IMG/VR virus record: IMGVR_UViG_3300008261_001827
Span: 44,894 to 108,893 of that record
Length of the DNA: 64,000 nt
Reading direction: 5' to 3' (one strand)
Source: a virus
Taxonomy: Duplodnaviria; Heunggongvirae; Uroviricota; Caudoviricetes
In this document: positions 25,194 to 59,338 of the stretch, one piece after another
How positions within the stretch are numbered: position 1 is the first letter of the stretch
Layout: each line of letters begins with the position of its first letter
The notes under the pieces: model-generated
Database searches by the model: none
Seen by the model: only the letters and a program-made list of their open reading frames with translations
Told to the model about the DNA's origin: nothing
Position numbers and translations under genes: made by a program

Positions 25194-26333
25194 TTACATC
25201 CCGAGCCACAGGGCAGTTTGATCCCAGCGAGTGTTGGTGCTGATGCTCTTACGGACGTGTTCCAACATCAAGTCACGGATGTTATGGCCATCCAACATAC
25301 GGAAGATGAACGGAGCGTCTGCCTTGTCTTCCAGCTTCGGAATGTACTCAAGAGCGACGCGCTTACGGTCGTTGTCGTACAATTGATTTACAACATCACG
25401 ATCCGCAAGAAGTTGGTCTTCTTTTACTTTGAACGCATTCCAGAAACGAATTTCAAAGTTACGAACACGGTTAGCCTGAACAACAGGCAACATCGGCATC
25501 ACGTCGTCAACTTCTTCGTTAACGATTAGATCCACAATGTTACGATCAAACGTGATACGTTCCATAGTCTTGTGGATACGGACGTACCAATCGTTCTTCA
25601 CCTTCAGCATATGGCCATCAGCGAAACGGATGATGTCACCTTCGCGGCCTTCAGACTCGCGCTGACGAGCAACGTAGTCTCCCATGGTACCTTCGATAGA
25701 ACCATAGGTACGAACACGATTAAACGGACACGAGGTATCCATCACATACGCGCCGGTAGCGTTGTCACGAGTACCTAGATACACGAGGTCTGCTTCGTCG
25801 TAAGCAAGAACGATCTGGTTGAACGGGCTTACCCACTCGAAGATCGGAGTTACAGAGTCATATACGCACTGACGCAGCCACTCCTTCATAGAAGGGTCAC
25901 AAGCAGCAAGCCAAGTTTCAGCCTGCATAGCCACGTCAGTCACACCCATCTTGGTAGCGAGACGAAGATAACCATCCACAAGGATAGGACGGATCATAGA
26001 ACCATCCATCTTTTCCATGATCACGTGCGGCTGAGACATATCAACCACATGAGTCTGAGTCTCTTCACGCTCGTTCACGTTGAAGAACTTGTGCAAAGGG
26101 CGGCTCATGAGGTTGCCATCACGATCAAAGATAAGACCGCGGCACTCGCGGCGGATCGCACCAGTCAAGTCATCAGAGCCGGACATGTTGAAAGTATCAG
26201 CCATCGCAACGACGTAGTTGATAACAGTATAGCCTTCGCGCTCTGCTACAACAAACTCGTCACGTCCTTCGATGTGAGGAAGAACGTCTGATATATGGCG
26301 GATCACAGGAAATTGATATCGCATCTTATTCAA
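25194..26333 (-). CDS. rnlA: RNA ligase (Rnl1-like)
   Basis: 379 aa. IMEKMDGS nucleotidyltransferase motif I (KxDG). Overall size and architecture like T4 RnlA. Confidence 0.75.
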   Translation of the reverse strand: MNKMRYQFPVIRHISDVLPHIEGRDEFVVAEREGYTVINYVVAMADTFNMSGSDDLTGAIRRECRGLIFDRDGNLMSRPLHKFFNVNEREETQTHVVDMSQPHVIMEKMDGSMIRPILVDGYLRLATKMGVTDVAMQAETWLAACDPSMKEWLRQCVYDSVTPIFEWVSPFNQIVLAYDEADLVYLGTRDNATGAYVMDTSCPFNRVRTYGSIEGTMGDYVARQRESEGREGDIIRFADGHMLKVKNDWYVRIHKTMERITFDRNIVDLIVNEEVDDVMPMLPVVQANRVRNFEIRFWNAFKVKEDQLLADRDVVNQLYDNDRKRVALEYIPKLEDKADAPFIFRMLDGHNIRDLMLEHVRKSISTNTRWDQTALWLGM

Positions 26334-26595
26334 ATTCTACATCTTCGAAGATTTCGTTGAAGGTGATCTCGTTGTACTCACCCCGGCCAGTCATGCCGAG
26401 TTCCCACATACGAGCCATCATCTTTGCGTCGTGTTCGGTCTTGATGTACATAGTAGTCTCAAGATCACCGTGCAGCATACCTACTTCACTGCGGAAGAAG
26501 TCAATCACGTACATGGTTTTGGTATACGAGCTGTCGAAGTCGCCGTAGCAGACATCAACTTCAACTTCTTCAGGGGTTACGATCGCGATAGCCAT
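26326..26595 (-). CDS. Hypothetical protein
   Basis: 89-aa ORF downstream of a family promoter. Confidence 0.5.
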   Translation of the reverse strand: MAIAIVTPEEVEVDVCYGDFDSSYTKTMYVIDFFRSEVGMLHGDLETTMYIKTEHDAKMMARMWELGMTGRGEYNEITFNEIFEDVEFE

Positions 26596-26620
26596 GTTGT
26601 TCTCCGTTCTTTACAGATAT

Positions 26621-26650
26621 AGAATATACTGATTCTAAACGAATGTAAAT
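26621..26650 (-). promoter_or_regulatory. Conserved early promoter (TTTACA -35 variant)
   Basis: rc ATTTACATTCGTTTAGAATCAGTATATTCT. 26 nt upstream of the 26595 start. Confidence 0.65.
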
Positions 26651-26833
26651 AGAAAACTTACCTTCTAACAACTTTTTTCTCTTCGTGGTATCCCCATGAA
26701 GACGATGGCTTTTGCTTTAGTTGTTCTAGGATTTTTGATAGAGTCTCTCTATCTCTATAGGAACCGGTTCTTCGTATGATATCTTCGAGTTCTTGGATCA
26801 ATGACACGGATACAACTCCTTCCTATAAAAGAG

Positions 26834-27067
26834 TTATTTATCGCTATCGTTCCAGAACGGATGATCTAGGATATAGTCAGCCGAAAGAATGAATAGCTCT
26901 TCTTCCCCGTCACCTTTTGTATACATACGAAACACGATGCTCCTGTCTTCTGGTTTTGGTTTCTCGATGCGAACCACCATCTTATTCTTAAGAGATGGCT
27001 TCACCGAGTGCACGAACAATGTTGAATTTACAAGATCTTCAATCGACGCGTCAACAAATTCTACCAA
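26834..27067 (-). CDS. Hypothetical protein
   Basis: 77-aa ORF. Confidence 0.45.
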   Translation of the reverse strand: MVEFVDASIEDLVNSTLFVHSVKPSLKNKMVVRIEKPKPEDRSIVFRMYTKGDGEEELFILSADYILDHPFWNDSDK

Positions 27068-27306
27068 TCTTTGATTCCATACTTCTCGTCGATTGGAAGG
27101 ACTACAGTCTCACAACTCACGGTGAACTCATTTGTAGGAAACAGAGACGCTACAGACTCATCGAGTTTTGAAGGATCCGAATACGTTTGTTCTAGATCCG
27201 TCAGCATCATCGTCTTAAGAACTTCACAATCGTTTTGATTCTGTCCTTCGTAACCGAGTTGTACGACAACGGCTCCTGCATACCAGAGTGTAGCCCAATA
27301 AGTCAT
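27061..27306 (-). CDS. Hypothetical protein
   Basis: 81-aa ORF. Confidence 0.45.
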   Translation of the reverse strand: MTYWATLWYAGAVVVQLGYEGQNQNDCEVLKTMMLTDLEQTYSDPSKLDESVASLFPTNEFTVSCETVVLPIDEKYGIKDW

Positions 27307-27317
27307 TTATGTTTCCT

Positions 27318-27515
27318 TTACTTCTTTGGAGAAAATGGTCTTGCTGCGAGACATGATTGGATCTCACTAGTCAGTTCACGAATCCTTGGCCAAACAGTCG
27401 TGTCGTTATTAAGAACGAGCTGCTTCATAAGAGCAGCTCGTTCGCGGCGTAGGTCTCCAAACTTAGTTCCGATCCAGAGACCATTCGCAACTTCGTAGTT
27501 CTTTTCGTCCATCAT
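27318..27515 (-). CDS. Hypothetical protein
   Basis: 65-aa ORF. Its stop overlaps the downstream start. Confidence 0.45.
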   Translation of the reverse strand: MMDEKNYEVANGLWIGTKFGDLRRERAALMKQLVLNNDTTVWPRIRELTSEIQSCLAARPFSPKK

Positions 27516-28030
27516 TATACATATGCCTTCAAAAGAGCGCCGTGCATGTTATAGAATTCGATTCTATCGAAACCTTCGTCTGCAGTCGGAAGAACAAAGC
27601 TTTCCATCATGTTTGCGACGACTTCGTTAGGAATGTTCTTGCCAGGGCGGTTCTGAAGACGATGCATCCAATCCTTTTGGTCGCTGATATGCCCAGCTTC
27701 AGGTGGAACGATGCATACGCAGTTCACTTCGTAACTCGCCTGACGCATACGATTAACGATCTTGCGACGCTTGCCAACGCCGAGGTTGGTCTGATCCCAG
27801 ATGATATCCTTACGTAGCTTAATCATCGAGTTCAACTTCTGCTCGTTGAACTCCGTCGCAGCCTTAATGTTTGAAGAAAACGCCTCGTTATAAGTGATGC
27901 CGTTGTCTTCAGCGACTGTATCGATATACATATCGGTGCTATAGATCCAGGTGTCTTCAGAGATCATTCTCTGAATGAGAGTGCTCTTACCGGTAGCAGG
28001 CAACCCAACCATCACAGTACAAGTAGGCAT
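27515..28030 (-). CDS. P-loop kinase (Pnk kinase-domain / AAA_33-like)
   Basis: GLPATGKST Walker A, WDQTN, RRKIV. ATG at 28030 with SD GGAGA chosen over the TTG at 28045. Confidence 0.6.
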   Translation of the reverse strand: MPTCTVMVGLPATGKSTLIQRMISEDTWIYSTDMYIDTVAEDNGITYNEAFSSNIKAATEFNEQKLNSMIKLRKDIIWDQTNLGVGKRRKIVNRMRQASYEVNCVCIVPPEAGHISDQKDWMHRLQNRPGKNIPNEVVANMMESFVLPTADEGFDRIEFYNMHGALLKAYV

Positions 28031-28041
28031 GTTTTCTCCAA

Positions 28042-28350
28042 TCAATACTTAAAGTTTCCACTCGCTTCGTTATCTTTGAAACCAGTCATATATGCTTCGA
28101 TTTCATTAGGAGTCATACGATCCTCAGGAATTAATTCGCTGGATCCGGTGCCACCAACGTAGTAGTGAGGAACACATGGACGACGGTAGTAACTATCAGC
28201 ACCACCGCGATCGTAGGGTCCACCATGACGTCTATCGTTAGATTGAGACATTAGGTTATTCTCTGCGAGTTTAATCAGCTGAGTAAGTTCTTCGTTCGTC
28301 ATACCGCAGATTGCAGCTTTGACTTCTTCGAGGCTATTAAAGGTAGTCAT
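28042..28350 (-). CDS. Hypothetical protein
   Basis: Start MTTFNS with SD AAAGGA, downstream of a family promoter. Confidence 0.5.
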   Translation of the reverse strand: MTTFNSLEEVKAAICGMTNEELTQLIKLAENNLMSQSNDRRHGGPYDRGGADSYYRRPCVPHYYVGGTGSSELIPEDRMTPNEIEAYMTGFKDNEASGNFKY

Positions 28351-28380
28351 TATCGTATTCCTTTCGTTTCCTACAGATAT

Positions 28381-28410
28381 AGAATACACTGATTCTAAAC
28401 GAATGTAAAT
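28381..28410 (-). promoter_or_regulatory. Conserved early promoter
   Basis: rc ATTTACATTCGTTTAGAATCAGTGTATTCT. 31 nt upstream of the 28350 start. Confidence 0.65.
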
Positions 28411-28421
28411 AGAAAAGTTGT

Positions 28422-28868
28422 TTAGAAGTCCTCATCACCTTGGTATACGTTGAACACAAAGATACCTTGCGAGCGCCAAGCTCTAACTACCCTGGGTCTG
28501 TCGTCAAACACCATGTCAGGCTTACGACCGTAGTCAGCGATGATCTCGTCTAGGATTTCCAGCTTGACAATGTCATCACTGCGGAGGTCGTCTGCCTTAC
28601 GCATGTACAGCTTTTCAAACGTATGCAGATGATTAGCAGTCAGCCAACTAATCGTGGCTTGACGACTGCGCTCGTTGCGACCGCTAGCGAGAATGATCTG
28701 GTTCCCAGCAGCACTCAGACAGTGAAATGCTTCTGCTACAGCTCGGTTCACTTTATCATTTGGAATGCCAGCATCGAAAGCAGCCCAGTTCTTAGGCTTG
28801 CTTCGAACGTAATCCAGACGGTGATCAATGTTAGCCAGTGTTCCGTCGATATCAAATACAATTAGCAT
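28422..28868 (-). CDS. HAD-family phosphatase (Pnk 3'-phosphatase-domain-like)
   Basis: MLIVFDIDGTL DxDGT motif I. 148 aa. Confidence 0.65.
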   Translation of the reverse strand: MLIVFDIDGTLANIDHRLDYVRSKPKNWAAFDAGIPNDKVNRAVAEAFHCLSAAGNQIILASGRNERSRQATISWLTANHLHTFEKLYMRKADDLRSDDIVKLEILDEIIADYGRKPDMVFDDRPRVVRAWRSQGIFVFNVYQGDEDF

Positions 28869-29224
28869 TATCTTACCTTCATATAGTTATTCAGCAGTCC
28901 TTCGATGTTTGCCTTACCTACTATGTTTTTTGAGTGGACATAGAAGTCAAAGTTTTCTGGAAACCGATATATATCTTCTGGAGTTTCCATGTCGATATTA
29001 ATGAGCATCTTTACGATGTCGTATCCGGTGCCGCTGTCTTCTCCAAGATCGTGGTCGAAACTAATGTAGGACGGCATGCCTTTCTCGAGGAATGCATCTA
29101 ACACTTCCTGACCGTTACGAGCAACTACCCACTCTTCGTTACGATACTTTTCCTGAACTTGCCAAGGAGCCCAAGTGACGTCCGAAAGATTGCGTTCATC
29201 GTCGATGAATAGATTCCAATCCAT
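28868..29224 (-). CDS. Hypothetical protein
   Basis: 118-aa ORF with overlapping stop/start. Confidence 0.5.
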   Translation of the reverse strand: MDWNLFIDDERNLSDVTWAPWQVQEKYRNEEWVVARNGQEVLDAFLEKGMPSYISFDHDLGEDSGTGYDIVKMLINIDMETPEDIYRFPENFDFYVHSKNIVGKANIEGLLNNYMKVR

Positions 29225-29491: not shown

Positions 29492-29701
29492 TTACCAAAT
29501 TCCTAAAGTTCTACCATTACTTGCGATAATAAAGACGCATGTTACAATATGTAATACGATCCAAAAAGTTCTGAATGCTAGCGCACGCTTTACATCTGTC
29601 TGTGTAATTGGCAAGAATTCTGGTTTATCGTCATCTGTAATGCCGATTGGCATGCCAACAGTTCTGGCCCACATTTTTAAGAAGCGTCTTTGGCCACTCA
29701 T
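29492..29701 (-). CDS. Small membrane protein
   Basis: 69 aa with a C-terminal TM helix. Start overlaps the AOX stop. Confidence 0.45.
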   Translation of the reverse strand: MSGQRRFLKMWARTVGMPIGITDDDKPEFLPITQTDVKRALAFRTFWIVLHIVTCVFIIASNGRTLGIW

Positions 29702-30339
29702 TATAGTTTATCAGCCATTCCGTGATTTACGTCTGCGTGACCCTGCTCATCAGATCTTACTGCAATAACAACATCTCTTAACGTAGCATCGTCTGCTAAG
29801 CTATAATAATCGATAGCAATCCGCGGCGCCGGTATGTTTTCTGCTCTTCCTGCATCGATTTCTTCTAGATAATGCGTATAACTAATCACCGCCTGATTCT
29901 CAAAGTAACCGACCATGCGATGAGCTGTTCTAGGAAAGAAAACATACAGTACAAAGTAAAAATGCCAGAACACGAACTGTGCAAATGCCACTATCAAACG
30001 TTCGAACCAATTTGGCCGAGCGATCTCTATGAAGATCATCAAGTGCATACGCTCGTTCTCTGCTTCGTCTAATAGAGTCTTAATCCAACCACGTTTGTCC
30101 GGTTCCATATTACGTAGACTACGAAGGTGTTGCCACATACCGGCTACCATGCCAGGAACACCGGCGACTGTTTCTAATACAACCGCGCGGTGCCCATATC
30201 TTCCAGCAAAAAATGTATCCGCAAACCAACGAAAGAACATAGTAAGCGCGTATGCGAACCTATCGCTAAAGTTTTTTGGATCCGGAATCATTTTTAACTT
30301 CCCCAGCCAGCGAAGTCTTGTTCCTCTACAGGAAACCAT
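29701..30339 (-). CDS. aox: Alternative oxidase (ubiquinol oxidase, AOX)
   Basis: LETVAGVPGMV, EAENERMHL, ISYTHYLEE and RSDEQGHADVNH di-iron ligand motifs, near-collinear with plant and bacterial AOX. Confidence 0.85.
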   Translation of the reverse strand: MVSCRGTRLRWLGKLKMIPDPKNFSDRFAYALTMFFRWFADTFFAGRYGHRAVVLETVAGVPGMVAGMWQHLRSLRNMEPDKRGWIKTLLDEAENERMHLMIFIEIARPNWFERLIVAFAQFVFWHFYFVLYVFFPRTAHRMVGYFENQAVISYTHYLEEIDAGRAENIPAPRIAIDYYSLADDATLRDVVIAVRSDEQGHADVNHGMADKL

Positions 30340-30349
30340 TTATTATCGG

Positions 30350-30727
30350 TCATTGTGAACCGAGAGTCTTAAGATACGCAATAAGATTTGCACGCTCTTC
30401 TTCTTTGGCTACTTTAACATTCATCTTTGTACCAGAAACTAGTTTCTTTGGATCTGCAAGCCAAGCATCCAGCAATTCATCAGTCCACAATGAGTTTGTA
30501 GCAGCAAATTCAGTTAGTGCTGCGCTGTACTTGTAGTCTGCGTTTGCGGCCACTCCGCGAGTAGAGATACCATAAAGATTTGGGCCATTTCCGTTCTTGC
30601 CGCCTTCATCAACAGAATGGCAGCTAGCACACTTTTTAAACGACTTTTCTCCAGCGGCCGCATCACCCTCAGCGTACGAAATTGATGGAAGAAGTGCGAC
30701 TAAGAGTGCAAGTGTAGTTTTAGTCAT
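30350..30727 (-). CDS. Class I c-type cytochrome (cytochrome c2/c550-like), secreted
   Basis: Signal peptide. CASCH heme-binding motif, GPNLYGI, and a distal Met in GTKMN. 125 aa. Confidence 0.8.
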   Translation of the reverse strand: MTKTTLALLVALLPSISYAEGDAAAGEKSFKKCASCHSVDEGGKNGNGPNLYGISTRGVAANADYKYSAALTEFAATNSLWTDELLDAWLADPKKLVSGTKMNVKVAKEEERANLIAYLKTLGSQ

Positions 30728-30750: not shown

Positions 30751-31098
30751 TTATTCGTGTTCGCCGCCGTTCATGCGACCGTTGTAGTTAGACAAACGAG
30801 TTGCATCTCTACGACGATTTCCTTCTTTGTATACTAGCGCAGTAACGAACACGCCGGATACAAACAATACATGCAACGTTGCACTAACACCAAAAGCAAG
30901 GTAACTGCCCAACATTAGAGCAAAGATAGCAGACCATACAAATGCTAACACTTGAAACAGCATGTGGGCTACCATTGGATCAAAGTTTTTTAGTGGTGAA
31001 TGTTCGATGGTCATAATGGTTTGATATGCTTCTTTAGGCATTCTCAGCAAAAGCAAAAAGGTATTTGCCATGCCAGGGCTAGATTTGCGGTTGTTCAT
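30751..31098 (-). CDS. Membrane protein
   Basis: 115 aa with two or three predicted TM helices. Confidence 0.45.
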   Translation of the reverse strand: MNNRKSSPGMANTFLLLLRMPKEAYQTIMTIEHSPLKNFDPMVAHMLFQVLAFVWSAIFALMLGSYLAFGVSATLHVLFVSGVFVTALVYKEGNRRRDATRLSNYNGRMNGGEHE

Positions 31099-31499
31099 TA
31101 TTTCGTTTCCTTAGCAATCATTTTGTATCCAGTTCCTGTAGGATGCACACCATCCTTGCTCAGTGGATAAGCTCTGGTATCCACAACCCAGTCTTTAAAC
31201 TTTTCGGCAATTGTGAGCGCAGCATACCTGGATTCTTGGTTGTTCGAACTGAGAATCCAAATAACGTCACCTTGGATGAGTTCACGCAAGGCCAGCATAG
31301 GACCATACGATTCTACATAGCCATCATTTGAACCTAGACTGATAATGGTCTTTTTGGATTCTGTCAACACAAACTGTCTATACAAGCCGTTGGCATAGTC
31401 CTCGGAATTGATGCCGGACTTGGCTTGCACAACACATTCTGGCCGCATCTGGCCGATACCAACTGCAATACTATCGCCTAAAATCAAACATTCAATCAT
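31098..31499 (-). CDS. SGNH/GDSL-family hydrolase
   Basis: LGDSIA (block I), GSNDG (block III), DGVHP (block V). Confidence 0.55.
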   Translation of the reverse strand: MIECLILGDSIAVGIGQMRPECVVQAKSGINSEDYANGLYRQFVLTESKKTIISLGSNDGYVESYGPMLALRELIQGDVIWILSSNNQESRYAALTIAEKFKDWVVDTRAYPLSKDGVHPTGTGYKMIAKETK

Positions 31500-31511: not shown

Positions 31512-32477
31512 TTACTGTGCAGGTTTAGTTGCGACGTCCATGAAAGGAACAGTAGACCCTGGAATCATAGTAGTAGGCAGTTGGCCATTCCACTTTTCAG
31601 CTTGAGTCAGAGCAATCAGACCAGCATTATCCTTAAGAGCTTCTGCCTTTGCCTTAATGGCCGATGCTTCTGCTTCACCACGGATACGAGTGGCTTCTGC
31701 TTCAGCAGTTGCTCGAGCAAGTTGTGCATCAGCTTCTGCTTGCGCCTGGATCACAGTAATCTCAGCAGTAACCTTTTCACGTTCTGCGTTCTGACGAACT
31801 TTCTGAACTTCGACTTCTGCGAGCATACGAGCTTCGATCGACTGTTCATACGCATCGGAGAAGTCAATGTTTTCGATCTGAACCGACTCAACAATGATCG
31901 GACCAATCACGGCTTTTTGAATAGCCATCTGCACTTCAGCAGCAAGACGTTCACGCTCTTGAATAGCAGTAGATGCGTTGAACTTACCGAAAATGTTCTT
32001 TACTTCTTCGAGAACCTGACGATCGAGAAGACGCGAGATAACACCGGCTTCACCACCGTACTCGCGGTAGATCGTCTCAACTTGATCTGCAGGGAAGCGA
32101 TAGTTAACAGACAGGTTCAGGCCCGCAGTTTGTTGGTCTCGTGAGTAAGCAAGGATGTTCTCGTACAACTGAGCTTGCGATTGAACGCTAATATCAATCA
32201 CTGAGTCGATAATCGGCATCTTAAAACCAAGACCAGGTTCTGACGTTCCAATCACCGCGCCATTTCGCAGGGCTACACCACGGTAACCTTCATCAACGGT
32301 ATACCACGATCCACCAATAACAGTAAGAGCAGTAATACCAATAAGAGTAGCAAAAGTACCACCAACGATAGCATTCATTTTCATTTTCCTCATGTGATTA
32401 TCATATTTTACCATAGCATCCCGATATTGCTCGGGTTTATCGAAGTCCCAACGATCAGGCTTTTGCATCAGGCTCAA
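31512..32477 (-). CDS. SPFH / band-7 (prohibitin/HflC-like) membrane protein
   Basis: N-terminal TM, SPFH core, and an Ala/Glu-rich coiled-coil C-terminus. Confidence 0.8.
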   Translation of the reverse strand: MSLMQKPDRWDFDKPEQYRDAMVKYDNHMRKMKMNAIVGGTFATLIGITALTVIGGSWYTVDEGYRGVALRNGAVIGTSEPGLGFKMPIIDSVIDISVQSQAQLYENILAYSRDQQTAGLNLSVNYRFPADQVETIYREYGGEAGVISRLLDRQVLEEVKNIFGKFNASTAIQERERLAAEVQMAIQKAVIGPIIVESVQIENIDFSDAYEQSIEARMLAEVEVQKVRQNAEREKVTAEITVIQAQAEADAQLARATAEAEATRIRGEAEASAIKAKAEALKDNAGLIALTQAEKWNGQLPTTMIPGSTVPFMDVATKPAQ

Positions 32478-32880: not shown

Positions 32881-32910
32881 AATATAATCACTGTTAGGCA
32901 GAATGTCAAC
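32881..32910 (-). promoter_or_regulatory. Early promoter, divergent family member
   Basis: rc GTTGACATTCTGCCTAACAGTGATTATATT (TTGACA, 17 nt, TATATT). Confidence 0.5.
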
Positions 32911-32923
32911 CACTGTTTTCAAT

Positions 32924-33232
32924 TTATTTGATTAAATTGCTCCAAGTTTTGAGTTTGTTGCGCTTTACATCTACTCTATCTCTCAACTCTTTGTCTGTCA
33001 AGATACCGTGCTCGACCATCAGTTCGATCATGCAAAGAACGTCGCCCGCTTCTTCGATCAACAAATCCCTATACTTGTCGTTCTGGATTTCTTCGAGTGT
33101 AGTATACTTACGCATGATCTTCATACATACTTGCGTCAGTTCGCCACATTCTTCTGATGTAATCGCCATGAGTTGTTGTATGGTATTCAGAGGTGATTCC
33201 AGTTCTTCATTGCTTACCATGATTAATCCCAC
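32924..33232 (-). CDS. mazG: MazG-like nucleotide pyrophosphohydrolase
   Basis: EECGEL and EEAGDVL metal-binding motifs. About 100 aa, all-alpha NTP-PPase. Confidence 0.75.
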   Translation of the reverse strand: MGLIMVSNEELESPLNTIQQLMAITSEECGELTQVCMKIMRKYTTLEEIQNDKYRDLLIEEAGDVLCMIELMVEHGILTDKELRDRVDVKRNKLKTWSNLIK

Positions 33233-34187: not shown

Positions 34188-34475
34188 TCAAAAGTAACTC
34201 CTAGGCATTTTCAGATTTTCGACCAGCCGGATCAACTTCTGCTTTGTTTCTTCAAATTGTTCGAGAGCAATCTTCTTGGTAAGATTGCAATCATCCATAA
34301 CAGCGCTCATCTTATCAAGTATTTCTTTTACCTCAATACCGTCAGTACCAACTTCTCGAACCTTATCAATAGCTTCATTCTTGGTGCGCTGAATGTCAGC
34401 ATCAGCTTTGGTATAATCACGGACAGCGCGGTCGAGCGCGCAGTTCAGACGTTCAAAAGCAAGAGTATCAATCAT
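34188..34475 (-). CDS. Hypothetical coiled-coil protein
   Basis: 95-aa ORF. Confidence 0.45.
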   Translation of the reverse strand: MIDTLAFERLNCALDRAVRDYTKADADIQRTKNEAIDKVREVGTDGIEVKEILDKMSAVMDDCNLTKKIALEQFEETKQKLIRLVENLKMPRSYF

Positions 34476-34843
34476 TCGATTACCTCGTATACCGGAACAC
34501 CGGCTTCATTTCCAATGCGGACCATATGAGCAGTACCATTACCACCCTTAAATGCTATAATAACATGCGGTTGCGATTCTGTCAACATCTTTATGTTTCG
34601 GATTGGCCCTGCTCTTTTTCCATGAGTTTCCCAGTCCGCTTCATACACTCTAATATTGCTGACTTGCCTTGTCTTCGCCCACTCATGTGAATGTCTATCC
34701 GCCCCTCTTGCTCCTCCATGTGCCAAAGCAAAAGATTTTCCTGCCAAGGTTGCAGCCTCGAGCGCGCTGTCGAGGACTTTAAAGAGTCGTTCTCGGTTGT
34801 CATAATCTCTCCCTCCACAGACGAGTACTCGGAATTCATTCAT
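34472..34843 (-). CDS. SLOG-domain / DUF2493-like protein
   Basis: VLVCGGRDY...HGGARGADR...GPIRN Rossmann-like motifs. Confidence 0.5.
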   Translation of the reverse strand: MNEFRVLVCGGRDYDNRERLFKVLDSALEAATLAGKSFALAHGGARGADRHSHEWAKTRQVSNIRVYEADWETHGKRAGPIRNIKMLTESQPHVIIAFKGGNGTAHMVRIGNEAGVPVYEVIE

Positions 34844-35334
34844 TCCAATTCTTCATTTGGAAACTCTTCGGTAGGAACAAACACATATTCGCTCTGATCT
34901 GGTTGTGTCCAAGGAAAAGTAATATACACTCGGCTGTTACTACTCGTATAGTGGCTCTTGAACGGTTTACCATCATCGATCTCAGGATGCGTAGCCCACT
35001 CCCAGAACACTCGGCCCTCGATCCAGTATGCTTGACCATCCTCTCCTTTAAACACCACACTGTTGCGGCGGTTCTGCCAAGTGCTTTCACCCACCTCGTT
35101 CCACTCGTCGTCTTCGCCAGTCAACGGTGCGATAGGTTTCCATAATGCAAGTTTTTCAAAGAGAGCTACCGCATACGGTGCAGACATACCACTGTGCCCT
35201 TGTTCTGAGAACACTTTCAGTAGTTCGAGTGTCCCTTCTGCAAGCCAGCGATTTGGCCCGTCTTCCGGATCATTAATATCGTATCCTGCAAGTTTTAGCT
35301 CTTGCTCAGCCCATTCCATCCTAGCCATAATCAT
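34840..35334 (-). CDS. Hypothetical protein
   Basis: 164-aa ORF. Confidence 0.5.
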   Translation of the reverse strand: MIMARMEWAEQELKLAGYDINDPEDGPNRWLAEGTLELLKVFSEQGHSGMSAPYAVALFEKLALWKPIAPLTGEDDEWNEVGESTWQNRRNSVVFKGEDGQAYWIEGRVFWEWATHPEIDDGKPFKSHYTSSNSRVYITFPWTQPDQSEYVFVPTEEFPNEELE

Positions 35335-41102: not shown

Positions 41103-41288
41103 TTATGAAAGTGATTTTTTTAGAGTCTCAACTACATTTTCCGGAAGATCACCGGCTTTCAGCGAGTCCTTCATGTAGTCTGTCTCCGGATCGTACCCAA
41201 CGTTATCTACGATCATCTGAGCTCTCTTCTGCTCATATTCTCTCCACTCTTCTGGAGTGATGGTCGGTACAAATTCTATTTCAGCCAT
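41103..41288 (-). CDS. Hypothetical protein
   Basis: 61-aa ORF. Confidence 0.45.
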   Translation of the reverse strand: MAEIEFVPTITPEEWREYEQKRAQMIVDNVGYDPETDYMKDSLKAGDLPENVVETLKKSLS

Positions 41289-41692
41289 GCGATTCTCTTT
41301 CCTTCCCTTAAGCGGCGTTCGTGTTCCTCTTCACTTCCTGGATATCTCCAACTCCATATCACAACCAGAATCATAGACAAAAGCATCCAACCAACTGCTT
41401 GCGCATTGGCTGTCGTAATCCAAAGAACAAGTAGAGAAGACGCCATCGTAACCAACATAAGATACTTAGCCTTTGTAGGAAAGATCTTTTTCTCTTGCCA
41501 GTTACGAAGGAATGGTCCGAACCTATGATGGTTATAGATCCACGCATGCATGCGATCGCTTGACTTTGCAAAGCAGATCGCAGCGAGAACGGTTGGTGTA
41601 CTCCAAGGAATACCAGGAACTATGACACCAATGTATGCCACTGCCAATAGATTGATACCTAATACTAACCAAACTAATTTTCTAAGTTCCAT
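41276..41692 (-). CDS. DUF454 (YbaN-like) inner-membrane protein
   Basis: LAAICFAKSSDRMHAWIYNHHRFGPFLRNW matches the DUF454 core. Start at internal ATG with SD TAGGAG. Confidence 0.55.
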   Translation of the reverse strand: MELRKLVWLVLGINLLAVAYIGVIVPGIPWSTPTVLAAICFAKSSDRMHAWIYNHHRFGPFLRNWQEKKIFPTKAKYLMLVTMASSLLVLWITTANAQAVGWMLLSMILVVIWSWRYPGSEEEHERRLREGKRIAWLK

Positions 41693-41705
41693 GGTACTCC
41701 TAAAA

Positions 41706-41897
41706 CTATTCTCGCTGCTTTTCCATAGCGTATCTAACTCTACAGTATGCACTGTTCCAAAAATCCCAGACTAGGCCGAGGAATAAACCTCCGCCTAGCT
41801 GGTGCCAAAATGTAGGACCGTTCGTTGCTAACAAAAAGCCGCCAATCAAAAGATCGGCTGTCACAACTGCAATAATATAATCATACCAACGAATCAT
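41706..41897 (-). CDS. Small two-TM membrane protein
   Basis: 63-aa ORF. Confidence 0.4.
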   Translation of the reverse strand: MIRWYDYIIAVVTADLLIGGFLLATNGPTFWHQLGGGLFLGLVWDFWNSAYCRVRYAMEKQRE

Positions 41898-54292: not shown

Positions 54293-54826
54293 CTATTCTT
54301 CGTAATATGGGTTATTAGGATCTGCATCTTTAGTAACATCTGGCCACCAATCCAATTCAAATCTTTTTCCATCAGCAAACATTTTCTTCATTGATTTAAT
54401 ACGCTTTTCATATTCAGCTTTAGATGGTTTAACATTTCCTTCCACAACATCCATTACATACTGAAGAGTTACTGCGTTTGCACTAAGACTCGCGCATCTT
54501 CCTCCGACTTCGCCTTTAAGATGATCTATCAGTATGCTCTCGCTGCTCATTGCGAGAGCATTAGAGAGTTCGTGCGGTACCTTTAGATCTATATATGAAT
54601 AAACATAGTCATAGTGTGGTACAGGAGAAGCATGCAGAATGTATTCGTCTAACACTTCTACTCTCTTAAATCCATCTTTGTTATACCAAACGGCTCTCAT
54701 TTTTGTAAGTTCGTCAGGAAGGCCAAAGAAATTGGTAAGATGCATTACATACTCTGCGGGCTCGTCATTATTCCAGCGAGATAGGATATTACTAATATCG
54801 TTTGAAAACTGCTTAAACGACTTCAT
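54293..54826 (-). CDS. Putative capsid-targeted internal protein
   Basis: N-terminus MKSFKQFSNDIS. 177 aa. Confidence 0.55.
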   Translation of the reverse strand: MKSFKQFSNDISNILSRWNNDEPAEYVMHLTNFFGLPDELTKMRAVWYNKDGFKRVEVLDEYILHASPVPHYDYVYSYIDLKVPHELSNALAMSSESILIDHLKGEVGGRCASLSANAVTLQYVMDVVEGNVKPSKAEYEKRIKSMKKMFADGKRFELDWWPDVTKDADPNNPYYEE

Positions 54827-56154
54827 ACCTTTATCTCCGGGTTAGGTGTACGAAAATTCTTTTTTCTCATAATAGTCTTTGATATAACAACAAGTTCGTC
54901 ATTCTTACGATCGTATTCCACCGCTATCGGCATGTTAAGATCCGTCTGCATATCCTTAATGACAGCTTCGGCATCTACAAACTTACTTAATGATTTATCA
55001 CCGCCCTGATACTTCTTATAGATCTTCTGTATCATACCAGCAAGTTCTTTCATATCGATACATGGATCGTTACGAGAATCGGTCATACGTTCGCGGAAAT
55101 GCTTTGTGAATTCAAAGTTTACATTGAACCTTTTAAACATACGATCTACAAACTGTTCAAAAGCTTGCATGTGAGCGACTGTAAAGATAGGACATTGATC
55201 TGCTTCTAGTACTAACTCTTCTTTTAATCTATTAGTAATTTTTTTAAATCTACGAAATGCTTTTTCTTCAATTTGACTAACTCTAGAGATGCTAAGGTTT
55301 AACTCTTTTGCTATCTGTCCCAAGGTCATATTATCAACGAATCGCATTTTATATACTTCAAGTTCTCTATCTCTTGCGGCGGCGCTTTTAGCATCGCCTG
55401 GTTTTGTTTTCTTGTACATAGCTATTATCTTTTGCAAATCAATTTTAGAATCAATGCTAATAGCTTCATTAACTTTACGTTGAGCCTTTATCCACTCAGA
55501 AGCAGCAGAAGAAGCGGGTTTTGTCTTTGCCCAGCCTGCTATCTTTTTATATGTGGAAAGGACAGCACCTTCGTAGTTTGATCCTGTAGAATTATCTACG
55601 ATAAACATCTTCTGACGAAAGAAGTTCTGAAACTTTCCGAGGTTCTTTTGAACATCTTTCCACATTCTATTCACTTCAGAATCTGATAATGATCTTTCTC
55701 TCTTTCTATTACGATCGAGCGCAGTGTCAAGATCTGTGTTCACAAATATCATAGCAACTTCGTATCCAATACCACGAAGCATATCAGCTTGCTTTTGTAT
55801 CTTTTCGTAGTCCTTACCGGTTCCATCAATCACTAGACCAAGGCGACCGTCAATCGCAAGTTGCATCATTTTCGTGGTAAGAGCCTTCGCCTGTCCACGT
55901 ACTTCTTGACCCTTTGGAGAATAGATATCTTCAGGAGTCGGTTTTAGACCAACTTTCTTTAGAGCATTTTCGAACGCGATGTCTGAGTTAATCACTTTAA
56001 AACCAAGAGATGTAAGAGCAGTTCTGCCAACTATAAAAGACTTGCCGGATCCTGGACCACCAGCAAGAAAGATTGCTTTGAAGATGGAAGGGTCGTTAAC
56101 TCCTTCGTTAATGAACTGCTTAAAACTTAGCACTTTATTCACCACCGTTTCCAT
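54823..56154 (-). CDS. P-loop kinase (zeta/Pnk/AAA_33-like) fused to a sigma70 region-4-like HTH, with leader motif (alternative GTG start at 56133)
   Basis: FLAGGPGSGKSF Walker A. MTLGQIAKELNLSISRVSQIEEKAFRRFKK resembles sigma70 region 4.2. Residues 9-18 read LSFKQFINEG. Confidence 0.6.
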   Translation of the reverse strand: METVVNKVLSFKQFINEGVNDPSIFKAIFLAGGPGSGKSFIVGRTALTSLGFKVINSDIAFENALKKVGLKPTPEDIYSPKGQEVRGQAKALTTKMMQLAIDGRLGLVIDGTGKDYEKIQKQADMLRGIGYEVAMIFVNTDLDTALDRNRKRERSLSDSEVNRMWKDVQKNLGKFQNFFRQKMFIVDNSTGSNYEGAVLSTYKKIAGWAKTKPASSAASEWIKAQRKVNEAISIDSKIDLQKIIAMYKKTKPGDAKSAAARDRELEVYKMRFVDNMTLGQIAKELNLSISRVSQIEEKAFRRFKKITNRLKEELVLEADQCPIFTVAHMQAFEQFVDRMFKRFNVNFEFTKHFRERMTDSRNDPCIDMKELAGMIQKIYKKYQGGDKSLSKFVDAEAVIKDMQTDLNMPIAVEYDRKNDELVVISKTIMRKKNFRTPNPEIKV

Positions 56155-58738: not shown

Positions 58739-58766
58739 ATTGCCCTCTAAGGAACTGTGTTCTTTC

Positions 58767-58774
58767 TATTTATA
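58767..58774 (-). promoter_or_regulatory. T4-type late promoter (TATAAATA on minus strand)
   Basis: Forward tatttata, 29 nt upstream of the 58738 ATG, with SD AGAGGG in between. Same spacing as the 53074 copy. Confidence 0.5.
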
Positions 58775-58777
58775 ATG

Positions 58778-59338
58778 TCAAGCTTTTAAAGTAAAATTGT
58801 CTTTAGAAAAGAACTTGGTAGCACAATACTCTTTTTCTACTGGATAGTCGTGAGGACAACCTTTTTCCCTCTTCATATCTGGATCTGTAAATGTCGCCGT
58901 TTCTTTCCAGTCAAAACCGTAGACGTCTACGTGCTTTGGTTTACAAGATGCTATATAATCTAAAGCGATAAGACCCGTTGTTGGGTTGTTGTGATTGCCA
59001 GAGTGCTTTTTCAGTTCTTTATACATATGTTCCGGATAGACACAATCAACCAAATGAATATTATTCGGACTGCGGCCTTGATGACCTGCATGCATCTTCT
59101 TTATATGTTTGGGTATCTTATGAAAGAATGACTTATACTCTGCGGCATTCCAAAATACCCAGACGTTAGTCTTTGTTCCATGACTCTTATTTACTTCATG
59201 TCTTGTATACAATACAGCTGCTTTATTAATACGTACTACTACATCGTGCTCGTCGATTTCGGCACCGTAGTTCTTATTGAAAAGAGCCATAGAGTTGCCA
59301 ATGACGGCAACAGTTTTTCCTTCAAACCATTCTTTCAT
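58778..59338 (-). CDS. GT42/CstII-like (sialyltransferase-family) glycosyltransferase, paralog 1
   Basis: KTVAVIGNSMAL...DVVVRIN and TGLIALDYIASC...VDVYGFD parallel the CstII motifs. Confidence 0.55.
   Translation of the reverse strand: MKEWFEGKTVAVIGNSMALFNKNYGAEIDEHDVVVRINKAAVLYTRHEVNKSHGTKTNVWVFWNAAEYKSFFHKIPKHIKKMHAGHQGRSPNNIHLVDCVYPEHMYKELKKHSGNHNNPTTGLIALDYIASCKPKHVDVYGFDWKETATFTDPDMKREKGCPHDYPVEKEYCATKFFSKDNFTLKA

What the first reader, a model, noticed from the sequence alone, without database searches (positions are those of the whole stretch)
29701..30727. Phage-encoded respiratory pair: alternative oxidase plus a secreted class I cytochrome c
The 212-aa ORF carries all four di-iron ligand motifs of alternative ubiquinol oxidase (LETVAGVPGMV, EAENERMHL, E..H in ISYTHYLEE, and RSDEQGHADVNH). 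It is nearly collinear with plant and bacterial AOX.

The gene directly upstream encodes a 125-aa protein with a signal peptide, a CASCH heme-binding site, GPNLYGI and a distal Met. This is a cytochrome c2/c550-type periplasmic carrier.

Cyanophages are known to carry the AOX relative PTOX. A bona fide AOX co-located with a c-type cytochrome in a T4-like phage is, to my knowledge, unusual.

The pair could let the phage re-route host electron flow during infection, for example as a non-proton-pumping overflow or by changing the periplasmic c-type carrier.
Basis: partly seen in the sequence, partly recalled or inferred. Interest (0 to 1): 0.75.

Follow-up and report, generated by a model that had tools for sequence, protein, structure and literature searches.

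The report
Phage respiratory genes: AOX, cytochrome c
An uncultivated T4-like phage really does carry an alternative (non-proton-pumping) quinol oxidase next to an exported cytochrome c, plus an overlooked phage-specific membrane protein, which suggests that phages of non-photosynthetic bacteria tune host respiration much as cyanophages tune photosynthetic electron flow.

Summary
Window 29701-30727 (minus strand) encodes a true alternative oxidase: Pfam AOX 267 bits, all six di-iron ligands plus the catalytic Tyr, and a model with TM 0.81 to trypanosomal AOX. Directly upstream lies a Sec-exported monoheme class I cytochrome c of the c2/c550/mitochondrial type.

There are two corrections. The third ligand Glu lies in GYFENQAV, not ISYTHYLEE. 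The AOX probably starts at Met17 (196 aa).

The window is a T4-like myovirus. The same arrangement recurs in at least seven independent samples, has phage-like GC, and is under purifying selection, so it is not an artefact.

At least 105 IMG/VR contigs and several 330-520 kb jumbo-phage contigs carry it, and the window's copy sits in a clade made only of viral sequences. Only 1 of 50,697 GenBank phages has it, unannotated, and none has the cytochrome. The two genes co-occur in only two lineages.

A 115-aa two-helix membrane protein (30751-31098) with no known family lies next to AOX in 25 phage loci and next to cytochrome c in 16. It is absent from 30 cellular AOX loci.

AOX and cytochrome c are not redox partners. 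They serve parallel branches downstream of the quinol pool. This is the respiratory counterpart of cyanophage PTOX plus plastocyanin. Function and host are untested.

The parts
29701..30291 (-). Alternative (ubi)quinol oxidase, AOX. It is 196 aa from Met17; the open frame extends to an ATG at 30339, giving 212 aa.
   Evidence: Pfam PF01786 266.9 bits. E~5e-46 to TAO with all ligands aligned. Ligands and Tyr conserved in every one of 123 homologues that covers those positions. AF2 model pLDDT 79; the top 14 Foldseek PDB hits are all TAO, TM 0.81, 44-46% identity. SD GGGGAAG lies before Met17 and there is none before Met1. dN is 0.08-0.12 with saturated dS against other phage copies.
30350..30727 (-). 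Sec-exported monoheme class I cytochrome c (c2/c550/mitochondrial type). Signal peptide residues 1-19, CASCH at 33-37, distal Met102.
   Evidence: Pfam PF00034 45.7 bits. Best PDB matches are Crithidia cytochrome c 2YK3 (2e-23), R. rubrum c2 2C2C (2e-22) and R. capsulatus cy. NCBIfam Cyt550 CycA E=2.6e-20, below its cutoff. Heme ligands invariant in 47 relatives. SD AAGGA upstream. dN/dS 0.10-0.22.
30751..31098 (-). orf115: a phage-specific small inner-membrane protein (N-terminal helix plus a 2-TM hairpin) of unknown family. It is the conserved neighbour of phage AOX and of phage cytochrome c.
   Evidence: No Pfam, PHROG or NCBIfam hit. 73 close homologues, all metagenomic and unnamed. 292 cluster representatives by profile search. 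Invariant H45, H76, S34-P35-L36, W55 and C-terminal G112-E113-H114; the full GGEHE tail is present in 29 of 31 aligned members, two reading DGEHY. AF2 pLDDT 69, helices 10-29/41-63/66-101. No fold match. Same strand as AOX in 25 loci and cytochrome c in 16, usually directly adjacent; absent from 30 cellular AOX loci.
29492..29701 (-). orf69: a small single-TM protein whose ATG overlaps the AOX stop codon (TAATG), so the two are translationally coupled.
   Evidence: Sequence at 29699-29703. Hydrophobic segment centred on residues 48-57. Homologues at 88-89% identity lie near AOX in L003 and L040. No family hit.
31098..31499 (-). 133-aa SGNH/GDSL-like protein (sub-threshold). Its stop overlaps the orf115 start, and it belongs to the same co-directional gene string.
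   Evidence: Pfam Lipase_GDSL 20.2 bits, below the 23.6 cutoff. A 60% homologue lies about 5 kb from AOX on the 518 kb phage contig.
31512..32477 (-). SPFH/Band-7 (HflK/C-like) membrane protein, upstream in the same gene string.
   Evidence: Pfam PF01145 E=5e-30. phrog_200. Weak HflC/HflK NCBIfam hits.
32881..33001 (-). Two sigma-70-like promoters (TTGACA-17-TATATT, 11/12; TTGACA-17-TAGAGT, 10/12) upstream of the gene string. They are candidate early promoters for the cluster.
   Evidence: Consensus scan. No terminator-like site between 28.3 and 33.5 kb. No T4-late TATAAATA motif between 22.3 and 40.1 kb, although the motif is enriched in the window at 12 against 3.1 expected. This is consensus-level evidence only.

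Best explanation
A T4-like myophage of a Gram-negative, quinone-respiring host carries a small respiratory auxiliary-gene cluster on one strand: orf115, then cytochrome c, then AOX, then orf69.

Shown:
- The AOX has the complete di-iron carboxylate active site and the AOX fold.
- The cytochrome has a Sec signal, CXXCH and a distal Met, and is of the bc1-to-oxidase carrier type.
- Both genes are phage-resident, compositionally ameliorated and under purifying selection.
- Both repeatedly sit next to the same phage-specific membrane protein.

Inferred:
- After infection, probably early and from sigma-70-like promoters, AOX docks on the cytoplasmic face of the inner membrane. There it oxidises quinol directly with O2, without proton pumping. 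This is an overflow valve that keeps the quinone pool oxidised and NADH turning over, and limits ROS, whatever the state of the pmf or the host oxidases.
- The cytochrome is exported, receives heme from the host maturation system, and enlarges the periplasmic carrier pool between the bc1 complex and the heme-copper oxidases. That sustains the energy-conserving branch.
- The two proteins are not redox partners. They raise capacity on the two parallel exits from the quinol pool.
- orf115 (N-in/C-in, with invariant His residues and a conserved cytoplasmic C-terminal tail, GGEHE in 29 of 31 members) is likely an accessory or adaptor for these proteins, or a modulator of a host respiratory complex.

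Functionally this is the respiratory analogue of cyanophage PTOX plus plastocyanin.
For: Identity of AOX. It is not a PTOX.

Identity of the cytochrome.

Phage residence: sheath, portal, scaffold, MCP, primase, Dda, NrdAB, ThyA, PhoH and Rnl1 in the window; enriched T4-late promoters; MCP 60-66% identical to phiM12, Melnitz and cyanomyophages.

Reproducibility: the identical trio occurs in six samples, and in L117 with a different upstream context. In L168 the trio is conserved at 90/83/91% identity.

Composition: GC and GC3 fall within the range of core phage genes.

Selection: AOX dN 0.08-0.12 with saturated dS; cytochrome dN/dS 0.10-0.22.

Spread among phages: at least 105 IMG/VR AOX loci; AOX at 85-91% identity on 330-520 kb jumbo-phage contigs; 33 IMG/VR cytochrome loci; cytochrome relatives at 57-72% identity on phage-like contigs. 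In an NJ tree the window AOX sits in a clade of only viral sequences.

Linkage: a second, independent AOX-then-cytochrome arrangement in L039/L139. orf115 lies next to AOX in 25 loci and next to cytochrome c in 16, always on the same strand and often with overlapping stop and start codons.

Expression context.
Against: No expression, activity or host data exist. Everything about physiology is inferred from family biochemistry.

AOX and cytochrome c co-occur in only 2 lineages among 123 AOX and 47 cytochrome loci, so most phages manage with one of the two, and a joint function is not required.

The promoter assignment is consensus-level only: 13 sites found against 10.2 expected.

The host is unidentified. 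The nearest cellular AOX sequences are spread over Limnobacter, Pelagibacterales, SAR116 and Litoricola. The nearest named cellular cytochromes are alphaproteobacterial, at only about 50% identity.

The tree is a distance tree on a sample biased by pattern-based retrieval.

Some IMG/VR contigs may not be viral. 32 of the 80 kept IMG/VR AOX loci shared no other window gene; the largest ORFs of 25 of them were censused, and the census shows phage-like but mixed content.
Confidence: 0.6

Rival explanations
1. The two genes are coincidental neighbours. AOX and cytochrome c are independent morons that happen to lie side by side in a hypervariable, AMG-rich early region of a T4-like genome, and each acts alone or is nearly neutral, with no joint function.
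For: Only 2 lineages carry both genes, among 123 AOX and 47 cytochrome loci. The two are not redox partners, by established AOX biochemistry. AOX is found in many different neighbourhoods, including jumbo phages. The surrounding region is a mosaic of small accessory genes: Tad3, SLOG, an RNA-repair set and SPFH.
Against: Two independent gene orders bring the genes together: cytochrome-then-AOX here and AOX-then-cytochrome in L039. The trio persists as sequences diverge to 83-91% identity. Both genes independently associate with the same phage-specific orf115. Both are under purifying selection.
Confidence: 0.22
2. The cluster is a stress or inhibitor-bypass module, not an energy or flux module. 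AOX serves as a cyanide-, NO- or sulfide-insensitive terminal oxidase and ROS limiter when heme-copper oxidases are poisoned or decay. The cytochrome mainly feeds a periplasmic cytochrome c peroxidase, or another c-dependent detoxifying enzyme.
For: Bacterial AOX is linked to NO and oxidative-stress relief in the literature cited in PMC12801897, which files a cyanophage AOX under oxidative-stress genes. AOX pumps no protons, so on its own it adds little ATP (family knowledge). Other phage AOX loci carry HSP20, ClpS and heme oxygenase nearby.
Against: The cytochrome is closest to bc1-to-oxidase carriers: c2, c550 CycA, cy, c552 and mitochondrial c. No peroxidase or NO-related gene was seen near any locus. 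This rival overlaps the best explanation rather than excluding it.
Confidence: 0.15
3. The phage is a cyanophage and the genes play a photosynthetic role. The oxidase acts on plastoquinol like PTOX, and the cytochrome replaces c6 or plastocyanin in a cyanobacterial host.
For: The only GenBank phage with this AOX type (C48C1) is classified in Kyanoviridae. The MCP is about 60% identical to cyanomyophages. Cyanophages are known to carry PTOX, PetE and PetF.
Against: Cyanophage PTOX is only 29% identical at E=0.03, and the PHROG PTOX hit is 20 bits. The cytochrome matches c2/c550/mitochondrial types. The nearest cellular AOX sequences are all from heterotrophic Proteobacteria or Marinimicrobia. 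The MCP is closer to phages of Sinorhizobium, Methylophilales and Stenotrophomonas. No photosystem gene was seen among the window ORFs annotated.
Confidence: 0.03
4. The pair is an artefact: host DNA mis-joined to a phage contig, or a cellular contig mislabelled as viral.
For: The proteins have close cellular homologues, with AOX up to 80% identical to Limnobacter.
Against: The same junctions on both sides appear in independent assemblies from six samples across JGI and ENA. Phage genes lie on both flanks within one co-directional, overlapping gene string. GC and GC3 are phage-like. The nearest relatives of all three genes are on other viral contigs, not in cells.
Confidence: 0.01

Closest known systems
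Trypanosoma brucei alternative oxidase (TAO; PDB 3VV9, 9KUN) and bacterial AOX (e.g. Novosphingobium aromaticivorans, Vibrio fischeri)
   Same: Same Pfam family. 44-46% identity to TAO. Same helical bundle (TM 0.81). The Glu/His di-iron ligands and the catalytic Tyr are identical. The short N-terminus matches other bacterial AOX sequences of 196-203 aa.
   Different: It is encoded by a phage. It lacks the long N-terminal arm of the eukaryotic enzymes. The third motif reads YFENQA instead of YLEEEA. It belongs to a clade currently populated only by viral contigs. It is accompanied by orf115, which is absent from 30 cellular AOX loci.
Cyanophage PTOX together with plastocyanin (PetE) and ferredoxin (PetF) auxiliary metabolic genes
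   Same: Same logic: a phage-borne di-iron quinol oxidase acts as a safety valve, alongside a small soluble electron carrier working between the cytochrome bc/b6f complex and a terminal acceptor. PTOX and AOX share Pfam PF01786.
   Different: The enzymes are different: 29% identity, E=0.03. The carrier is a heme protein, not a copper protein. The chain is respiratory, and the host is most likely a heterotroph. The orf115 partner has not been described.
Rhodospirillum rubrum cytochrome c2 (2C2C), Bradyrhizobium cytochrome c550 CycA (NF043008) and mitochondrial cytochrome c
   Same: Class I fold signature: an N-terminal CXXCH, GPNL[YF]G, and a distal Met in GTKM. The mature N-terminus EGDAAAGEK is nearly identical to that of R. 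rubrum c2. E values are 2e-22 to 2e-23.
   Different: It is phage-encoded. It scores below the CycA equivalog cutoff (72.9 against 240 bits). It lacks the c2 insertion before the distal Met. It forms its own clade of eight metagenomic proteins (57-100% identity); those on contigs long enough to judge lie in phage-like contexts. Identity then drops to 54% or less for the next hits, where the first cellular names appear.
AOX annotated in cyanomyovirus S-SCSM2R (PMC12801897), AOX mentioned in prasinovirus papers, and the unannotated homologue in Phage C48C1 (OQ984149, WJE87901.1)
   Same: These are virus-borne AOX-family genes, interpreted as redox or oxidative-stress AMGs.
   Different: C48C1 is only 58% identical, sits between the clamp and clamp-loader genes, and has no cytochrome or orf115 nearby. 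None of these reports describes an adjacent c-type cytochrome. The prasinovirus papers were seen only in a search listing and were not read.

Membership tests
Alternative oxidase (AOX, PF01786; membrane-bound di-iron carboxylate quinol oxidase) | Significant match to the family profile over its full length | tested here: met
   266.9 bits against a cutoff of 22.7; profile positions 15-216 of 216.
Alternative oxidase (AOX, PF01786; membrane-bound di-iron carboxylate quinol oxidase) | Four Glu and two His di-iron ligands (LET, NERMH, LEEEA-equivalent, DEaxH) | tested here: met
   E56, E96, H99, E147, E198 and H201 align with the TAO ligand motifs. E56, E96, H99 and E147 are invariant in all 123 homologues; E198 and H201 are conserved in 122, with one copy gapped there. 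The third ligand lies in YFENQA.
Alternative oxidase (AOX, PF01786; membrane-bound di-iron carboxylate quinol oxidase) | Conserved catalytic tyrosine (TAO Y220) | tested here: met
   Y154 in ISYT aligns with ITYT of TAO and is invariant.
Alternative oxidase (AOX, PF01786; membrane-bound di-iron carboxylate quinol oxidase) | AOX helical-bundle fold | tested here: met
   AF2 model pLDDT 79, pTM 0.78. The top 14 Foldseek PDB hits are all TAO, TM 0.80-0.82.
Alternative oxidase (AOX, PF01786; membrane-bound di-iron carboxylate quinol oxidase) | AOX clade rather than PTOX clade | tested here: met
   E~5e-46 to TAO, against 29% identity and E=0.03 to cyanophage PTOX and 20 bits to the PHROG PTOX family.
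Alternative oxidase (AOX, PF01786; membrane-bound di-iron carboxylate quinol oxidase) | Cyanide-insensitive, SHAM-sensitive quinol:O2 oxidoreductase activity | not testable with these tools
   This requires heterologous expression and respirometry.
Class I c-type cytochrome, c2/c550/mitochondrial subgroup | Single N-terminal CXXCH heme-attachment motif | tested here: met
   C33-A-S-C36-H37, invariant in 47 relatives.
Class I c-type cytochrome, c2/c550/mitochondrial subgroup | Distal Met sixth ligand near the C-terminus | tested here: met
   M102 in GTKM aligns with the distal Met of mitochondrial c and c2 and is invariant.
Class I c-type cytochrome, c2/c550/mitochondrial subgroup | Export signal for periplasmic location | tested here: met
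   Residues 1-19 show K3, a hydrophobic core (KD peak 2.63 at residues 7-14) and S-Y-A before the cleavage site. Homology to mature c2 starts at residue 20. The same architecture occurs across the phage clade. No dedicated signal-peptide predictor was available.
Class I c-type cytochrome, c2/c550/mitochondrial subgroup | Equivalog-level identity with a named carrier (e.g. CycA c550) | tested here: not met
   NF043008 scores 72.9 bits against a cutoff of 240. It belongs to the subgroup but is not an orthologue of CycA.
Class I c-type cytochrome, c2/c550/mitochondrial subgroup | Covalent heme and electron transfer between bc1 and an oxidase | not testable with these tools
   This requires expression with ccm genes, heme staining, redox titration and kinetics.
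Phage auxiliary metabolic gene (AMG) | Lies inside a bona fide phage genome with phage genes on both sides | tested here: met
   T4-like hallmark genes span the window. Immediate neighbours are phage gene families. The gene string is co-directional and overlapping.
Phage auxiliary metabolic gene (AMG) | Reproducible in independent assemblies, not chimeric | tested here: met
   Six samples carry an identical arrangement, and a seventh carries a diverged copy.
Phage auxiliary metabolic gene (AMG) | Maintained by purifying selection in phages | tested here: met
   AOX dN 0.08-0.12 with saturated dS; cytochrome dN/dS 0.10-0.22. The catalytic residues are invariant.
Phage auxiliary metabolic gene (AMG) | Expressed during infection and alters host metabolism | not testable with these tools
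   Only consensus promoter and RBS evidence is available.

The most novel reading that the evidence does not exclude
orf115 defines a new, phage-specific respiratory-rewiring module. In this reading a small two-helix inner-membrane protein, with invariant His45 and His76 and a conserved cytoplasmic C-terminal tail (GGEHE in most members), has no described family. It acts as the common adaptor that plugs phage-supplied electron-transport parts into the host respiratory chain, or that modulates a host complex such as the bc1 complex or a terminal oxidase. The parts include AOX, class I cytochrome c and possibly blue-copper proteins or DoxX. The module circulates among T4-like and jumbo phages of freshwater and marine heterotrophs, with a phage-only AOX lineage. 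That would make control of aerobic respiration a widespread phage strategy, parallel to the cyanophage photosynthesis genes.
Probability: 0.3. Interest if true: 0.78.

Novelty: new variant of a known kind. Interest (0 to 1): 0.62.

Why it matters
Phage manipulation of electron transport is well documented for photosynthesis in cyanophages (psbA, PTOX, PetE, PetF). It is barely documented for aerobic respiration in phages of heterotrophic bacteria, which dominate lakes and oceans.

This locus gives a concrete, experimentally tractable case:
- a complete AOX and an exported cytochrome c in one early gene string of a T4-like phage;
- evidence that AOX is a widely circulating and largely unannotated phage gene, annotated in none of 50,697 GenBank phage records yet present in more than 100 IMG/VR contigs and in 330-520 kb jumbo phages;
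- a previously unrecognised membrane protein that links the two.

If the genes are functional, infected cells would respire differently, with more uncoupled O2 consumption and a changed ATP yield per carbon. That bears on carbon-use efficiency and oxygen budgets in aquatic systems, and on how AOX spread so patchily among bacterial lineages, since phages could be the vectors.

Tried and rejected
- DNA-level search of the 6 kb region against 50,697 GenBank phages: no match, so no named close relative exists.
- tblastn of the cytochrome against GenBank phages: none.
- PHROGs for the cytochrome, orf115, orf69 and GDSL133: none. NCBIfam for AOX, orf115, orf69 and GDSL133: none.
- A single-sequence IMG/VR scan with the cytochrome found only the same phage. 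An alignment-based scan was needed to find more.
- orf115: the AF2 model has only moderate confidence and Foldseek against the PDB gave nothing below E=4. Pfam scans of ten distant relatives found no family for the core, only rare fusions to REC or LMW-phosphatase fragments. One JGI name, 'regulation of membrane protease activity' (NfeD-like), on an 84-aa fragment was considered because an SPFH gene lies nearby. I rejected it as unsupported: the topology is opposite to NfeD, and there is no profile hit.
- Host identification: there are no tRNAs. The cellular neighbours of AOX span several classes, and cytochrome neighbours are only about 50% identical. I therefore make no host call. Freshwater SAR11 seems unlikely, given 42.6% GC in the window (my knowledge of LD12 GC), and Methylophilales and alphaproteobacteria remain open.
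- I considered that the 330-520 kb contigs carrying 85-91% identical AOX were bacterial hosts. I rejected this: their content is jumbo-phage-like.
- Literature: six searches found no report of a proteobacterial-type AOX in phages of heterotrophs or of a phage soluble class I cytochrome c. The Dunn 2023 review was not held.
- dS could not be estimated for most AOX pairs because of saturation, so only an upper-bound argument is given.
Full report
**1. What is at the coordinates**

The minus strand of the window carries a tight, co-directional gene string:
- SPFH/Band-7 protein, 31512-32477
- a 133-aa SGNH-like ORF, 31098-31499
- a 115-aa ORF ("orf115"), 30751-31098
- the 125-aa cytochrome ORF, 30350-30727
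- the 212-aa AOX ORF, 29701-30339
- a 69-aa ORF, 29492-29701

Stop and start codons overlap at 31098 and at 29701.

**2. The oxidase**

Pfam AOX (PF01786) matches at 266.9 bits, E=1.7e-79, over profile positions 15-216 of 216. phmmer finds only trypanosomal AOX in the PDB, at E~5e-46.

In that alignment LETVAGVPGMV, EAENERMHL and R(S/A)DE..H..VNH line up with the TAO motifs. The catalytic Tyr (ISYT against ITYT) is present.

In an alignment of 123 phage and cellular homologues, E56, E96, H99, E147 and Y154 are invariant. E198 and H201 are conserved in 122, with one copy gapped there.

An AlphaFold model (pLDDT 79, pTM 0.78) retrieves only TAO structures as its top 14 PDB matches, at TM 0.80-0.82 and 44-46% identity.

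It is not a PTOX. The best cyanophage PTOX (S-CAM9) is 29% identical at E=0.03, and the PHROG PTOX family scores 20 bits.

The ATG at 30339 has no ribosome-binding site. The ATG at 30291 (Met17) is preceded by GGGGAAG. Homologues are 196-203 aa and public gene calls are split between 196 and 212 aa. I take 196 aa as the likely product.

**3. The cytochrome**

Pfam Cytochrom_C matches at 45.7 bits. The best solved relatives are Crithidia cytochrome c, R. rubrum c2, R. capsulatus cy, mitochondrial cytochromes c and Paracoccus c552, at E=2e-23 to 1e-17. NCBIfam's closest model is Bradyrhizobium c550 CycA, at E=2.6e-20 but below the equivalog cutoff.

C33-x-x-C36-H37, GPNLYG and the distal M102 are all present. 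C33, C36, H37, P49 and M102 are invariant in 47 relatives.

Residues 1-19 are a classical signal peptide: Lys3, a hydrophobic core and S-Y-A. Homology to mature c2 begins exactly at residue 20, with EGDAAAGEK. There is no lipobox Cys, so the protein should be soluble in the periplasm. AAGGA lies 9 nt upstream of the start.

**4. The replicon**

The window encodes tail sheath, portal, scaffold, major capsid protein, gp61-type primase, Dda helicase, NrdA/B, thymidylate synthase, PhoH, Rnl1, an exonuclease and an endolysin.

The T4 late-promoter motif TATAAATA occurs 12 times against 3.1 expected, upstream of the structural genes.

The capsid protein is 60-66% identical to those of Sinorhizobium phiM12/phiN3, Methylophilales phage Melnitz, Stenotrophomonas DLP_6 and the cyanomyophages. 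No GenBank phage matches at the DNA level.

This is therefore an uncultivated T4-like myovirus of the non-enteric branch.

**5. Not an artefact**

The exact cytochrome sequence is indexed in 43 blocks of the public assembly collection. Six places from six samples (five JGI, one ENA) show the same orf115-cytochrome-AOX arrangement inside the same phage genes. One of them (L117) has a different upstream context.

A 1.3 kb contig from a further run keeps the trio at 90/83/91% protein identity.

GC (0.42-0.44) and GC3 (0.33-0.41) of the three genes lie within the range of the core phage genes.

Against other phage copies, AOX shows dN 0.08-0.12 with saturated synonymous sites. The cytochrome shows dN/dS 0.10-0.22.

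**6. How unusual**

Among 50,697 GenBank phage records, only Phage C48C1 (Kyanoviridae) has this AOX type. It is 58% identical and annotated as hypothetical. None has the cytochrome.

Uncultivated phages look different:
- At least 105 IMG/VR stretches encode AOX at 72-100% identity.
- 48 of the 80 fetched loci share other genes with this window. A census of the neighbours of 25 of the other 32 loci shows T4 RegA, gp15, ligases, NUMOD3, PstS, CsgG, Clp and PRPP synthetase.
- AOX copies at 85-91% identity lie on contigs of 330-520 kb. Their content (NrdAB, homing endonuclease, PAAR, ribosomal protein S21, HSP20, ClpS, heme oxygenase, and mostly unannotated small ORFs) is that of jumbo phages, not bacteria.
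- The closest cellular AOX sequences reach at most 80% identity: Limnobacter, a Neomarinimicrobiota MAG, Pelagibacterales, SAR116 and Litoricola.
- In a neighbour-joining tree the window's AOX sits in a large clade made only of viral sequences. This is a distance tree on a retrieval-biased sample.

For the cytochrome, the eight closest proteins (57-100% identity) are all metagenomic. Those on contigs long enough to judge lie in phage-like contexts. A further 33 IMG/VR loci carry relatives at 43-62% identity.

Both genes occur together only in this lineage and in L039/L139. There the order is reversed (AOX then cytochrome) and the neighbours differ: PRPP synthetase, a Pho4-like transporter and a lipase.

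In the literature library I found AOX annotated in one cyanomyovirus (PMC12801897) and AOX mentions in prasinovirus papers, which I did not read. A 2012 virome report describes cbb3 oxidase reads in viral fractions (PMC3474794). Nothing covers a phage AOX-cytochrome pair or a phage soluble class I cytochrome.

**7. The overlooked third gene**

orf115 has no Pfam, PHROG or NCBIfam match. It has 73 close homologues, all metagenomic and effectively unnamed. A profile search finds 292 cluster representatives. The only cultured-phage relative is a weak one in Melnitz.

The alignment shows an MTIEHSPLKNFDP motif and two hydrophobic helices, each with an invariant His (H45, H76). The C-terminal tail is GGEHE in 29 of 31 members, with G112, E113 and H114 invariant. 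The model is an N-terminal helix plus a TM hairpin, at pLDDT 69. Lys/Arg-rich flanks suggest both ends are cytoplasmic. No fold match was found.

Across all fetched loci it is always on the same strand as AOX (25 loci) or cytochrome c (16 loci):
- Gaps to cytochrome c are 12-27 nt.
- Gaps to AOX are −6 to 19 nt in most loci and 190-306 nt in three.
- The gap to AOX is 415 nt where the cytochrome lies between the two genes, as it does here.

In T4-like contigs that carry cytochrome c but no AOX, the two genes overlap stop to start.

orf115 is absent from all 30 cellular AOX loci examined. It also occurs in a 274 kb marine phage contig, close to a blue-copper protein and a DoxX gene.

In this window the cytochrome gene sits between orf115 and AOX. 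In many relatives those two genes are directly adjacent.

**8. Mechanism**

From established biochemistry, AOX is a monotopic di-iron protein on the cytoplasmic (matrix) face of the membrane. It oxidises quinol and reduces O2 to water without proton translocation, and it is insensitive to cyanide and NO. Class I c2/c550 cytochromes shuttle electrons in the periplasm from the bc1 complex to aa3 or cbb3 oxidases. The two are therefore not a donor-acceptor pair. They sit on the two alternative exits from the quinol pool.

The most economical reading is that the phage raises quinol-oxidising capacity on both routes. One route is an uncoupled overflow that keeps NADH, TCA and nucleotide-precursor flux running and limits ROS. 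The other is a coupled route that sustains the pmf once host gene expression has ceased.

Several observations suggest early, host-polymerase-driven expression, though the evidence is weak:
- no late promoter lies between 22.3 and 40.1 kb;
- two near-consensus sigma-70-like promoters lie at 32.9-33.0 kb on the coding strand;
- no terminator-like site lies between 28.3 and 33.5 kb.

The cytochrome depends on host Sec and heme-maturation machinery, which points to a Gram-negative host. The role of orf115 is unknown. The main alternatives are coincidental adjacency and a primarily stress or inhibitor-bypass role. A cyanophage or photosynthetic role and an artefact are both poorly supported.

**9. 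Comparison and novelty**

The closest analogue at the system level is the cyanophage set of PTOX plus plastocyanin and ferredoxin. The closest molecular relatives are TAO and bacterial AOX, and c2/c550 cytochromes.

The finding is a new variant of a known kind, namely electron-transport AMGs. Three things are new:
- respiratory rather than photosynthetic parts;
- an apparently phage-only AOX lineage that spans T4-like and jumbo phages;
- an undescribed conserved partner protein.

The host, the habitat, expression and activity were not determined. The JGI sample numbers look to me like Laurentian Great Lakes or freshwater sets, but I could not verify that with the tools.

Noticed in passing
window 30751-31098 (-); also L003, L005, L008, L013-L023, L031, L121, L122 (next to AOX) and L131-L134, L137, L154, L156, L157 (next to cytochrome c): A 115-aa phage-specific two-helix membrane protein. 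H45 and H76 are invariant, and the C-terminal tail is GGEHE in 29 of 31 aligned members. It has no known family. It is the recurrent same-strand neighbour of phage AOX and of phage cytochrome c, and it is absent from 30 cellular AOX loci.
   Followed up: yes
L120, L121, L123 (contigs of 329,544, 351,339 and 518,643 bp): AOX at 85-91% identity is carried by jumbo or mega-phage contigs. These also encode ribosomal protein S21, HSP20, ClpS, heme oxygenase, PAAR and NUMOD3 endonucleases. I first mistook them for possible host genomes.
   Followed up: partly
L161 6995-7880 (274 kb marine contig, ENA ERZ27251039): A blue-copper (plastocyanin/azurin-like, PF00127) gene and a DoxX-like gene lie within 1.5 kb of an orf115 homologue. 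The phage contig also carries IF3, S21 and curli CsgF/CsgG genes. A DoxX-like ORF also precedes cytochrome c and orf115 in L157 (3467-3868).
   Followed up: no
window 34472-35334 (-): A Tad3 (type I Thoeris inhibitor, PF25185, E=2e-37) gene lies next to a YAcAr/SLOG-family gene (PF10686). This looks like an anti-defence pair, and it is conserved in the related contigs L112-L114.
   Followed up: no
window 25194-29224 (-): An RNA-repair-like set: T4 Rnl1-type RNA ligase (25194-26333), an AAA_33/KTI12-like kinase (27515-28045), a HAD phosphatase of the PNKP type (28422-28868), and a cyclic-phosphate-processing receiver domain protein cREC_REC (28868-29224). It appears to be a split Pnkp/Rnl system directly downstream of the respiratory cluster.
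   Followed up: no
window 41276-41752 (-): A DUF454/YbaN-family inner-membrane protein. Homologues at 50-58% identity recur within 6 kb of AOX in ten other IMG/VR loci (L025, L026, L029, L032, L041, L044, L051, L052, L055 and others), although here it lies 11 kb away.
   Followed up: no
window 29492-29701 (-): A 69-aa single-TM ORF is translationally coupled to AOX through a TAATG overlap. In L003 its homologue sits between orf115 and AOX instead of after AOX, which indicates shuffling of small membrane ORFs around AOX.
   Followed up: partly
window 54823-63203 (-): A large sugar or nucleotide-sugar cluster inside the phage. It includes a cytidylyltransferase-like 867-aa protein, an ATPase/kinase-like 443-aa protein, a nucleotide-sugar epimerase and an aminotransferase. 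These may serve DNA or surface glycan modification.
   Followed up: no
L001 (Phage C48C1, OQ984149, 26279-26830): The only GenBank phage with this AOX type has it annotated as 'hypothetical protein'. The gene lies between the sliding-clamp and clamp-loader genes, next to a tRNA-Thr.
   Followed up: partly
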